Positions 384-19,314 of a stretch of DNA of 64,000 nucleotides are shown piece after piece; the first letter of the stretch is position 1, and each line of letters starts with the position of its first letter. The translations under genes and the position numbers were made by a program. The notes beneath the pieces were generated by a model that was not told the DNA's origin, ran no database searches, and saw only the letters and a program-made list of their open reading frames with translations. The stretch is taken from the NCBI RefSeq assembly GCF_009914755.1, contig NC_060941.1. One strand, 5' to 3'. This DNA comes from the human T2T-CHM13v2.0 reference genome, Homo sapiens.

Positions 384-617
384 CACTCTCTTCAATTGAC
401 AGGTTTTGATCTGAAGTATTTTCTGCCTCTGCAGTGGTGGTACCACTTACACATCCATCTACAGCAACCCCGTTACTGGCCATTAAACTGGGATACTTCT
501 TACTGGAACCTGGGCCTAGGGCTTTGTGGCCAACTTCAGAAGCATTTAATTTAATTTGTTCCTGCCCAGATGTACTTATATCACAAGATACTAGGAACTT
601 CTCCTCCAAGGAAGGGC
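384..617 (-). CDS. SYNRG: SYNRG exon 7 (234 nt, [15 protein letters not shown]...NLSIEES), symmetric phase 1-1
   Basis: Acceptor tgtttag|GC, donor AGTG|gtgagc; overlaps ORF 325..609. Confidence 0.93.
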
Positions 618-1367: not shown

Positions 1368-2133
1368 TCACTGCACATTTGTATAGGACTTGAGAGACTT
1401 CAGAGATTTTAGAGAATGTAAACATAATTATCTACTGTGATTCTAAAGAATTCTATGAGACAGTAGGTGGAAGAGTGTAGTGGAAGGAGCACTACCTTTG
1501 AAATCTGACAACCTACATAAGATAACACTTCCACTAACTCCTAGGGAGGCCTCTGGCCAGTAACATCATCATCATCTCTTGGTCTGTTTCCATGTCCATC
1601 AAATGAGACAGTCTGGACTAAGTACATGTCTGCCAAGATCCCTCCCAGCACCCTGTCTCAAGCCAGGATGTGTAGCTGTCTCTATTCATTTTATAGATGA
1701 CAAAATCTAAGGCACACCAAGGACAAATTGACAGTAAATGGACAACCTGGGCTTCTGCCCCCAAGTGCCCTGTCACTGAAGCTGAAAGAGTACTTTCTAA
1801 AGAAGCCTTTCCTAGCTCCTTATTCTTAAGAAAATGATATCGGTGAATCTCCCAAACAACAATCTTCTGGAAAAATCAGAAGATTTCTTTTAAAGTTATA
1901 AGGCAGTTTAAAGTGCTCCTAGTTGAGGAGCAAAAGTTTTAAATCACCTTTCTGGAATGTCAAGACCCCAGAACTTAAAAATCTAGACACTTGTTTTGTT
2001 GAATTTCAACAGCAGTCATACATTTATGTGCATGTTTATTTGCCAACATCACTGGATTATTCTACTTATATAACAGAAATAAGTTATCCCAGGATATCTT
2101 AAGAATATTTTCATTAATAATGCTAAGAGTTAC

Positions 2134-2436
2134 CTGCTTCTGGTACACTGTGTGAGGCTGAAGCAGTAGAGAAGTAAGGAATTTGCCCAGGGACGCCATG
2201 TAAGGCAAAAGGCACTGGACTCTGACTTGGAGGGAGAGGCTGTGTCCCAGCCTTCTGTGTATGCAACTGGCCAAGTGGGGTGGAGGGGTGGAAAGACTGA
2301 AAGGGCTGGGACGTGGAAGAAGGCCCACATGGGGGAACTTCAACAGGCCCCTGCATAAAGTCACTGAATTCTTCTTCATCAAGAAAGGCAGGTGATGGGG
2401 AGACAGTTTTAGTAGAATGAGATGATGTGGGGCAAT
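2134..2436 (-). CDS. SYNRG: Candidate alternative SYNRG cassette exon (303 nt, 101 codons, DCPTSSHSTK...LDEEEFSDFMQGP...HSVPEA)
   Basis: Long pyrimidine tract then ttgcag|AT; donor GCAG|gtaact; stop-free, phase 1-1 like its flanks; non-repeat; lies inside ORF 2123..2572. Confidence 0.78.
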
Positions 2437-3477
2437 CTGCAAAATGGAAAATGGCAATGAAACACACAAAAATGGAAACCAACAGAGAAAAAGGAATTAA
2501 GATGTAGTACAATTCCAAAAGAATATATTGAAACATAAATAGTGGAGGTGAACAAGAAATAACAAGTAACAATAGTCAAATGGAATTGCATGATGCATGT
2601 AAAACACTTTGATGTCTATTTATACACAATTTTATGTCTTTTTAAAGGGGAGTTTTAATAGCTATTTTGTATTTGGTTCAAAAAAGGTAAAACTAAAAAT
2701 ACATGTATCTATTCATTTATTTTAGAGACAGGATCTTGCTCTGTCACCTAGGCTACAGTGCTGTGGCATGCTCATAGCTCATGATCATAGCAGCCTGAAA
2801 CTCGTGGGATCAAGCAATCCTTCAGCCTCAGCCTCCTGAGTAGCTAGGAATATAGGCACATGCCAGCATACCCAGCTAATTCTTCCTTTCTTTTTTTTTT
2901 TCATAGAGATGGTGTCTCACTATGTTGCCCAAGCTGGTCTCGAGCTCCTGGCCTTGACTGTCTTTCTTTTATTAGATTAATAATTTTTCCCCTGAGACCA
3001 TTAATGATTTACATCAAAGTGATGATTATTTTTGCAGTTGAAATGATCTGTTTATCTAGATAATATTATCTCAAACCAATATACATCAGATATAAGAAAA
3101 CCTACCAATATAGTGCTGAATACATTTTGGACAGATATATACCATGATGACTAAATTTCATTATTTATTAAGAAATTCAGTAAGAAATAATGCACAATAC
3201 AAAGCTGTAATTTTTGAAATATCATGCCCGATCCACACACTTGCATAGATCATATTTCAGTAAAGTTACCATATGAGAAATAAAAATTACAAAAGAACTT
3301 TTTTTTTTTTTTTGAGATGGAATCTTGCTGTGATGCCCAGGCTAGAGTGCAATGGCATGAGCTCAGCTCACTGAAACCTCTGCTTTGTTCCCCCGGTTCA
3401 AGAGATTTTTCTGCCTCAGCCTCTCAAGTAGCTGGGACTACAGGTATGCACCGCCATGCCCAGTTAATCTTTGTATT

Positions 3478-7650: not shown

Positions 7651-7762
7651 CTGGTTTCTTGGGGTGCGATGCTGGAGTAGGGTGCATTTTTGCATCTCTG
7701 GAAAACCCATCTAAATTTCCTTTTATGGCTTCCAAAGCATCATCTCTACTCTTCTCTCCTGT
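7651..7762 (-). CDS. SYNRG: SYNRG exon 6 (112 nt, TGEKSRDDALEAIKGNLDGFSRDAKMHPTPASHPKKP)
   Basis: Acceptor ctcttag|ACA, donor CCAG|gtagtt; overlaps ORF 7529..7735; ends phase 1. Confidence 0.93.
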
Positions 7763-19192: not shown

Positions 19193-19314
19193 CTGCATAG
19201 CAATAGGTCCTTGGGACATCTGAGAGCTGTAATTCATTCCCATAATGCCTTGCATATTAGGCTGCATGACAGAGACCATAGGAAATCCTTGTTGCTGCAT
19301 CGGCATCAGGCCTG
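19193..19314 (-). CDS. SYNRG: SYNRG exon 3 (122 nt, AGLMPMQQQGF...GPIAMQ)
   Basis: Tandem acceptor tttcag|CAG; donor CAG|gtactt; overlaps ORF 19109..19306. Confidence 0.93.

What the first reader, a model, noticed from the sequence alone, without database searches (positions are those of the whole stretch)
2134..2436. Hidden in-frame 101-codon SYNRG exon with an extra gamma-ear-type motif (DEEEFSDF)
Seen: canonical splice sites, 303 nt, phase 1-1 matching exons 6 and 7, no stops, non-repeat, Pro/Ser-rich, with LDEEEFSDFMQG at about 2348-2383. Established: synergin gamma, aftiphilin and epsinR bind AP-1 gamma-ear/GGA GAE domains through acidic DFxDF/DDFxxF motifs. Recalled, unverified: canonical human SYNRG joins KKPG directly to PSLEEK, while rodent Synrg has a similar DCPTSSHSTK segment. 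Inference: a conserved, regulated exon that adds an adaptor-binding site ahead of the EH domain.
Basis: partly seen in the sequence, partly recalled or inferred. Interest (0 to 1): 0.8.

Follow-up and report, generated by a model that had tools for sequence, protein, structure and literature searches.

The report
Annotated SYNRG cassette exon with adaptor motif
This is a real, deeply conserved but already annotated alternative exon of the human trafficking gene SYNRG that adds one more likely docking site for the AP-1/GGA clathrin adaptors; it is a modest, testable addition rather than a discovery.

Summary
Window 2436..2134 (minus strand) is a 303-nt open exon with ag|…|gt borders. It is phase 1-1 and fits between SYNRG exons 6 and 7. 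LDEEEFSDFMQG lies at 2383..2348.

It is not hidden. The RefSeq table lists 2134-2436 as an exon of other SYNRG transcripts. 30 of the 120 listed protein hits are human "synergin gamma isoform X…" models that contain it at 100% identity.

It is conserved as coding sequence across amniotes: primates, two marsupials, birds, crocodilians, turtles and squamates. Human-sauropsid identity is 50-59%. That is higher than for neighbouring exon 7, which the selected transcript includes.

The acidic EFSDF block is the conservation peak. It fits [DE]Fx[DE][FW] in 71 of 71 aligned orthologues. It also meets the published gamma-appendage motif [D/E]FxD[F/W] (Mills 2003).

Most likely the exon is a disordered insert that gives synergin one more AP-1 gamma-ear/GGA-GAE site, just upstream of the EH domain.

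Five text searches found no paper describing the exon. Interest is low to moderate.

The parts
2134..2436 (-). 303-nt, phase 1-1 cassette exon of SYNRG (101 codons counting the two split codons). It is absent from the selected transcript NM_007247.6 and present in other RefSeq transcripts.
   Evidence: Sequence and borders. Translation. Hub table lists 'exons of other transcripts 2134-2436'. 100% identical in 30 human model rows. Amniote orthologues.
2348..2383 (-). Codons for LDEEEFSDFMQG. The core EFSDF lies at 2357-2371 and is a candidate AP-1 gamma-ear / GGA GAE binding motif.
   Evidence: place. (motif definition [D/E]FxD[F/W]). (71 of 71 orthologue segments fit; conservation peak 0.96 over EFSDFMQGPV).
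2437..2461 (-). 3' splice site: pyrimidine-rich tract (13 of 17 Y at -20..-4), a TTCAT branch-point-like word 22 nt upstream, and the ag.
   Evidence: Unnamed ORF fragments that read through this flank keep 'FHFAD' in sauropsid-like sequences.
2126..2133 (-). 5' splice site CAG|gtaactct. It matches 8 of 9 consensus positions, with a non-G at +5.
   Evidence: The read-through fragments keep G-N-S/K-S/N-M/N-I after the exon.
7651..7762 (-). Upstream constitutive exon 6. It ends in phase 1 (…KKP + G).
   Evidence: hub table. Mean column conservation 0.94.
384..617 (-). Downstream exon 7 (78 aa, PSLEEK…). It is itself alternatively spliced and also phase 1-1.
   Evidence: Page 1999: rat clones lack aa 197-274. 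40 of 120 primate models join the cassette directly to the next exon.

Best explanation
Window 2134-2436 (minus strand) is a bona fide alternative coding exon of SYNRG, conserved across amniotes. It inserts about 101 Pro/Ser-rich, probably disordered residues after residue 196, between the N-terminal region and the EH domain.

Its functional core is an acidic DEEEFSDF block of the [D/E]FxD[F/W] class. This class docks on the basic patch of the AP-1 gamma-adaptin appendage and the homologous GGA GAE domains.

Including the exon would raise the strict [D/E]FxD[F/W] sites in synergin from three to four, and the looser DDFxD/EF-type sites from five to six. It would also place one site on the N-terminal side of the EH domain. 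That should increase avidity for AP-1/GGA coats or change the geometry of binding.

Shown here: the exon, its frame, its existing annotation, its conservation and the motif match. Inferred: disorder, binding, and any effect on avidity or regulation.
For: - Canonical splice sites, as good as those of the constitutive exons in the window: donor 8/9, pyrimidine tract 13/17.
- The frame is preserved between exons 6 and 7.
- RefSeq lists the exon (hub table).
- One search gave 729 protein hits at E<=1e-3. All 120 listed rows are primate synergin gamma models at 97-100% identity.
- One search gave 69 hits from squamates, turtles, crocodilians, birds and 2 marsupials.
- All 120 and all 69 rows carry the acidic-EF[SN][DE]F-[MI]QG block.
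- Of 71 extracted segments, 69 read EFSDF, 1 EFSEF and 1 EFNDF, all motif-compatible. This block is the conservation maximum of the exon.
- In a 20-species alignment E219, F220, S221, D222 and F223 are invariant, as well kept as the known DDFxDF sites.
- Mills 2003 defines [D/E]FxD[F/W], measured 13 uM for a synergin peptide, and explicitly accepts EFxDF (passages read).
- Page 1999 reports five DDFXD/EF repeats and maps the gamma-ear binding region (passages read).
- A motif of this kind is unlikely by chance: 371 of 200,000 shuffles.
- No Pfam domain matches the cassette, and 57% of its residues are P/S/T/Q/G.
Against: - No binding test was possible.
- Synergin already has several such sites, so one more may add little.
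- The motif starts with E rather than the DD of the synergin repeats, so it fails the strict DDFx[DE]F pattern.
- In Page 1999 a GST construct covering aa 168-517 did not pull down gamma-adaptin. That construct lacked this cassette, so it says nothing directly about it.
- The selected human transcript skips the exon.
- All 120 listed rows that contain it bear model-type names ('isoform X…'). 609 of the 729 hits were not listed.
- No paper or peptide evidence was found.
- Rodents, amphibians and fish were not examined.
- Disorder is judged from composition only.
Confidence: 0.6

Rival explanations
1. The exon is real and translated, but the conserved acidic FxDF block serves another purpose. 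It might be a different partner of acidic-aromatic motifs, an intramolecular contact, or a phospho-regulated element next to the SPSP sequence. Alternatively the insert may act mainly as a spacer before the EH domain.
For: Other positions of the cassette are also invariant in 20 species: S202, H203, F242, Q253, K258, P265, G280, P283. So the motif is not the only constrained part. Binding was not tested.
Against: The block meets every sequence requirement of the gamma-appendage motif. It also sits in a protein whose established function is gamma-ear/GAE binding through the same motif. The tolerated substitutions (S to N at x, D to E at +3) are those the motif allows.
Confidence: 0.25
2. In humans the exon is a low-level, model-only splice form with no physiological protein product.
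For: It is absent from the selected transcript (hub table). All listed rows containing it are predicted 'isoform X' models. The 1999 rat brain clones were reported only as lacking aa 197-274, with no insertion mentioned. No publication mentions it.
Against: An open frame, the motif and both splice-site flanks are kept between human and lizards, turtles and birds. That cannot be explained without selection on a translated product in at least most lineages. Human is 97-100% identical to other primates. Missing peptide evidence is expected, because trypsin yields 52- and 46-residue peptides.
Confidence: 0.1
3. It is a chance open reading frame in an intron, flanked by chance AG and GT.
For: Shuffled introns reach a 150-codon open run in 4% of trials.
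Against: Annotation (hub table) and orthologous protein matches down to E 1e-40 in sauropsids within named SYNRG proteins.
Confidence: 0.01

Closest known systems
Gamma-appendage / GAE-binding short linear motif [D/E]FxD[F/W] of epsinR and gamma-synergin (Mills et al. 2003, PMC2172650). A related database regex, recalled from memory and not from any call, is [DE][DES][DEGAS]F[SGAD][DEAP][LVIMFD].
   Same: EFSDF preceded by DEE satisfies the published pattern and the recalled regex. It lies in a low-complexity region of a known gamma-ear ligand, and it is conserved.
   Different: It is encoded by an alternative exon. It lies N-terminal to the EH domain, whereas the known sites lie C-terminal to it. 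Binding is unmeasured.
The five DDFXD/EF repeats of gamma-synergin (Page et al. 1999, PMC2169493)
   Same: Same protein, same F-x-[DE]-F spacing and an acidic lead-in. The following residue M matches the DDFADFM site.
   Different: It starts EEF rather than DDF, so it fails the strict repeat pattern. It is not part of the 1999 sequence.
The neighbouring SYNRG cassette, exon 7 (aa 197-274; window 384-617), reported as alternatively spliced in 1999
   Same: Same insertion point (after residue 196) and same phase 1-1. The two are included independently in the models: 80 of 120 have both, 40 of 120 have this cassette only.
   Different: Exon 7 has no [DE]Fx[DE][FW] motif. It is less conserved: mean column conservation 0.56 against 0.77. 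It is in the selected transcript.

Membership tests
Gamma-ear/GAE-binding motif [D/E]FxD[F/W] (Mills 2003) | Sequence match to [D/E]-F-x-D-[F/W] | tested here: met
   EFSDF at residues 219-223 of human model P0074. Definition read.
Gamma-ear/GAE-binding motif [D/E]FxD[F/W] (Mills 2003) | Acidic context that can meet the basic patch of the appendage | tested here: met
   D-E-E precedes the motif in human. The three preceding residues read DDE, DDD or DEE in 68 of 71 orthologue segments, GDE in 2 and HDE in 1.
Gamma-ear/GAE-binding motif [D/E]FxD[F/W] (Mills 2003) | Located in an accessible, non-globular region | tested here: inconclusive
   No Pfam match for the cassette and 57% P/S/T/Q/G.
Gamma-ear/GAE-binding motif [D/E]FxD[F/W] (Mills 2003) | Conservation of the motif among orthologues | tested here: met
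   71 of 71 segments fit [DE]Fx[DE][FW] after dropping 1 mis-extracted row. 120 of 120 and 69 of 69 full-length rows carry the block.
Gamma-ear/GAE-binding motif [D/E]FxD[F/W] (Mills 2003) | Direct, Phe-dependent binding to the AP1G1 ear or GGA GAE | not testable with these tools
This needs ITC or a pull-down.
Synergin DDFXD/EF repeat (Page 1999) | Strict D-D-F-x-[DE]-F | tested here: not met
   The strict pattern finds the five known sites, not the cassette (EEFSDF).
Frame-preserving cassette (alternative) coding exon | Canonical AG/GT borders, length a multiple of 3, no stop in frame | tested here: met
Frame-preserving cassette (alternative) coding exon | Both inclusion and skipping forms exist | tested here: met
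   Skipped in NM_007247.6 and listed among the exons of other transcripts (hub table). Present in 30 human model rows. This rests on annotation, not on reads.
Frame-preserving cassette (alternative) coding exon | Junction-read support and tissue-dependent PSI | not testable with these tools
   No RNA-seq resource is reachable. Ling 2022 reports a cell-type-specific SYNRG exon but the held text does not say which one.
Frame-preserving cassette (alternative) coding exon | Coding-type conservation | tested here: met
   At protein level only: 50-59% identity between human and sauropsids over 100 residues, with at most 4 gap positions. Nucleotide-level dN/dS was not possible.

The most novel reading that the evidence does not exclude
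The cassette may be a cell-type-specific switch. It could be the SYNRG exon that Ling et al. 2022 found restricted to excitatory neurons and glia. Including it would add an AP-1/GGA docking site right beside the EH domain. It would then retune how the aftiphilin/p200/synergin complex engages clathrin coats in some cell types. It is better conserved than the exon that the reference isoform carries at the same position.
Probability: 0.15. Interest if true: 0.5.

Novelty: new member of a known kind. Interest (0 to 1): 0.3.

Why it matters
Synergin gamma is a standard marker and accessory protein of AP-1 clathrin coats. It is usually studied as the reference isoform, which lacks this exon.

If the cassette site binds, isoforms would differ in their number and placement of adaptor-binding sites. 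That would bear on interpreting knock-down and rescue experiments, interactomes and variant annotation in this exon.

The gain is incremental. The exon is already in RefSeq, and the motif class and the protein's use of it have been known since 1999-2003.

Tried and rejected
- Complex prediction of the gamma-adaptin ear with the cassette peptide. I located the AP1G1 ear exon in the assembly through PF02883 (after two unanswered tries). Seven aligned ones are naive ORF fragments that read through the introns. PMC4601534 only cites synergin papers.\n- Hirst 2005 (PMC1087257) is not held.\n- A scan for splicing-regulator words found four YCAY within 40 nt of the 3' splice site and no GCATG downstream. 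It had no chance control and I draw no conclusion from it.\n- I considered AP-2 alpha-ear FxDxF, FFAT-like and LIR-like readings of the acidic-aromatic block. By inspection the spacing or the required residues do not fit. No tool test was made.

Full report
**1. What is in the sequence**

On the minus strand, window 2436..2134 is a 303-nt stretch bounded by ...ttttccattttgcag| and |gtaactct.

SYNRG exon 6 (7651-7762) ends ...AAG AAA CCA G|gt. Exon 7 (384-617) begins ag|GC CCT TCC TTG GAG GAG AAG.

The cassette starts with AT, which makes GAT (Asp). It ends with G, which remakes the Gly codon. So it is phase 1-1 and inserts D + 100 residues without a stop.

LDEEEFSDFMQG is encoded at 2383..2348, and EFSDF at 2371..2357.

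The peptide has 18 Pro and 17 Ser in 100 residues, and 57% P/S/T/Q/G.

The exon's G+C content is 0.52, against 0.41 for the 7033-nt intron.

**2. Is it more than chance?**

The exon is the longest of 35 AG..GT, phase-1/1, stop-free candidates of 150 nt or more in the intron. The open run around it (150 codons) is the longest in the sense strand of the intron. Shuffled introns still reach that length in 4% of 300 trials, so the open frame alone proves little.

The splice sites are as good as those of the 18 other annotated internal exons in the window. The donor matches 8 of 9 consensus positions and the tract has 13 of 17 pyrimidines.

The exon is single-copy in the assembly by DNA. By six-frame protein search the next best E is 0.45. 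It is therefore not a repeat or a paralogue.

**3. It is already annotated**

The hub's RefSeq table lists 2134-2436 among the exons of other SYNRG transcripts.

A search with the 100-residue translation found 729 proteins at E<=1e-3 among 887 candidates. All 120 listed rows are primate 'synergin gamma isoform X…' entries at 97-100% identity.

Thirty of those rows are Homo sapiens, with 15 distinct labels: X9-X12, X14-X23 and X28. All listed names are of the predicted-model type. 609 hits were not listed, so I cannot say whether any curated isoform carries the exon.

In these models the cassette follows ...HPKKP. It is followed by exon 7 in 80 of 120 rows and directly by the next exon (VGVFPS or VRVFPS) in 40 of 120.

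**4. Conservation**

The search of representative proteins returned 8 hits. The 7 that I aligned are naive ORF calls that read through both introns. Four of them are 51-57% identical to human in that alignment.

Using one of these as the query returned 69 proteins among 91 candidates. Apart from 1 unnamed row and 2 with generic names, they are named synergin gamma. They come from squamates, turtles, crocodilians, birds and two marsupials.

I extracted the cassette segment from 72 proteins: 3 primates and those 69. One row (P0194) was mis-extracted and dropped. Of the remaining 71:
- 69 read EFSDF, 1 EFSEF and 1 EFNDF, so 71 of 71 fit [DE]Fx[DE][FW].
- The three preceding residues are DDE, DDD or DEE in 68, GDE in 2 and HDE in 1.
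- The next residues are [IM]QG in all.

On the full-length sequences, 120 of 120 rows and 69 of 69 rows carry the block.

For per-column conservation I dropped 10 further partial or aberrant gene models and collapsed identical segments, leaving 55 rows. The best 10-residue window is EFSDFMQGPV at 0.96, against an exon mean of 0.79.

In a 20-species full-length alignment, E219, F220, S221, D222 and F223 are invariant.

Mean column conservation by region:

| Region | Mean column conservation | Human-sauropsid identity |
|---|---|---|
| Cassette (2134-2436) | 0.77 | 50-59% |
| Exon 7 (384-617) | 0.56 | 32-51% |
| Exon 6 part | 0.94 | |
| EH region | 0.94 | |

The cassette that the reference isoform skips is thus better conserved than the alternative exon it includes.

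The read-through fragments also keep 'FHFAD' before the exon and G-N-S-like residues after it. This indicates conserved splice-site flanks.

Rodents, amphibians and fish were not examined.

**5. The motif and the likely mechanism**

Page et al. 1999 (passages read) described gamma-synergin as an alternatively spliced gamma-adaptin-ear ligand. It has an EH domain (aa 295-377) and five DDFXD/EF repeats. Three of these lie in the mapped binding region, 518-786.

They also noted that rat clones lack aa 197-274, which is exon 7 here. They mention no insertion at that point.

Mills et al. 2003 (abstract and passages read) defined the gamma-appendage motif as [D/E]FxD[F/W]. They measured 13 uM for a synergin peptide, counted three copies in synergin and explicitly noted EFxDF copies in Drosophila epsinR.

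In a human model with the cassette (P0074):
- The strict pattern finds EFSDF (219) plus DFQDF, DFADF and DFADF.
- The DDFx[DE]F pattern finds the five published sites but not the cassette.
- A database regex that I recall from memory (from no call) matches EEEFSDF.

A motif of this kind arose in only 371 of 200,000 shuffles of the exon peptide.

Pfam finds only the EH domain, at 417-472 of that model, and nothing in the cassette.

My reading is that the cassette is a disordered insert. Its constrained core would be one more gamma-ear/GAE docking site, and the only one N-terminal to the EH domain. It would add to the multivalent engagement of AP-1 and GGA coats.

The exon, frame, annotation, conservation and motif match are shown. 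Disorder, binding and functional consequence are inferred.

**6. What could not be done**

To test binding in silico I located the AP1G1 ear exon through PF02883.

The sequence search of solved structures found nothing for the cassette.

No expression data are reachable. Ling et al. [quoted passage not shown] The held text does not say which exon, and Fig. S2 is not held.

Five text searches found no description of this exon or its motif. Supplementary tables of splicing and proteomics papers, which I could not search as a whole, may well list it.

Trypsin would give 52- and 46-residue peptides over the cassette. Missing peptide evidence would therefore not be informative.

**7. Verdict**

The exon is real, conserved and carries a bona fide gamma-ear-type motif. 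It is not hidden, and its regulation and binding remain untested.

Relative to what is known, it is a further, undescribed instance of a known motif class. It lies in an already annotated alternative exon of a protein that is already known to use that motif.

Interest is low to moderate (0.3).

Noticed in passing
window 384-617 (-): Exon 7 of the selected transcript (78 aa) is itself a cassette at the same insertion point. Rat clones lack aa 197-274 (Page 1999), 40 of 120 primate models skip it, and both marsupial models used lack it. It is less conserved than the 2134-2436 cassette (0.56 against 0.77 mean column conservation).
   Followed up: partly
window 2134-2436 (-), translated: The cassette has only two Lys and no Arg, so trypsin yields peptides of 52 and 46 residues. 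Standard shotgun proteomics would probably miss the exon.
   Followed up: partly
window 2437-2480 (-): There are four YCAY words within 40 nt upstream of the 3' splice site and a TGTGTGT run at 2462-2468. There is no GCATG within 600 nt downstream. No chance control was made.
   Followed up: no
P0122-P0128, P0199, P0200 (unnamed library proteins): The large protein libraries hold naive ORF calls from vertebrate genomic DNA that read through introns on either side of an exon. They act as accidental probes of splice-flank conservation: 'FHFAD' before the cassette and 'GNS' after it.
   Followed up: partly
window 19193-19314 (-): The hub table lists an alternative exon form, 19193-19311, that differs by 3 nt from exon 3 of the selected transcript. 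Its 3' end (donor side on the minus strand) is unchanged. A 2026 paper places a lymphocyte-count variant that creates a 3' splice site in 'SYNRG exon 3' (PMC13755413, passage read). I did not check whether these are the same site.
   Followed up: no
G000:C1:103964331-103964528 (locus L007): A PF02883 (adaptin appendage) match with an internal TAG stop on chromosome 1. It is possibly a processed pseudogene of an adaptin or GGA gene.
   Followed up: no
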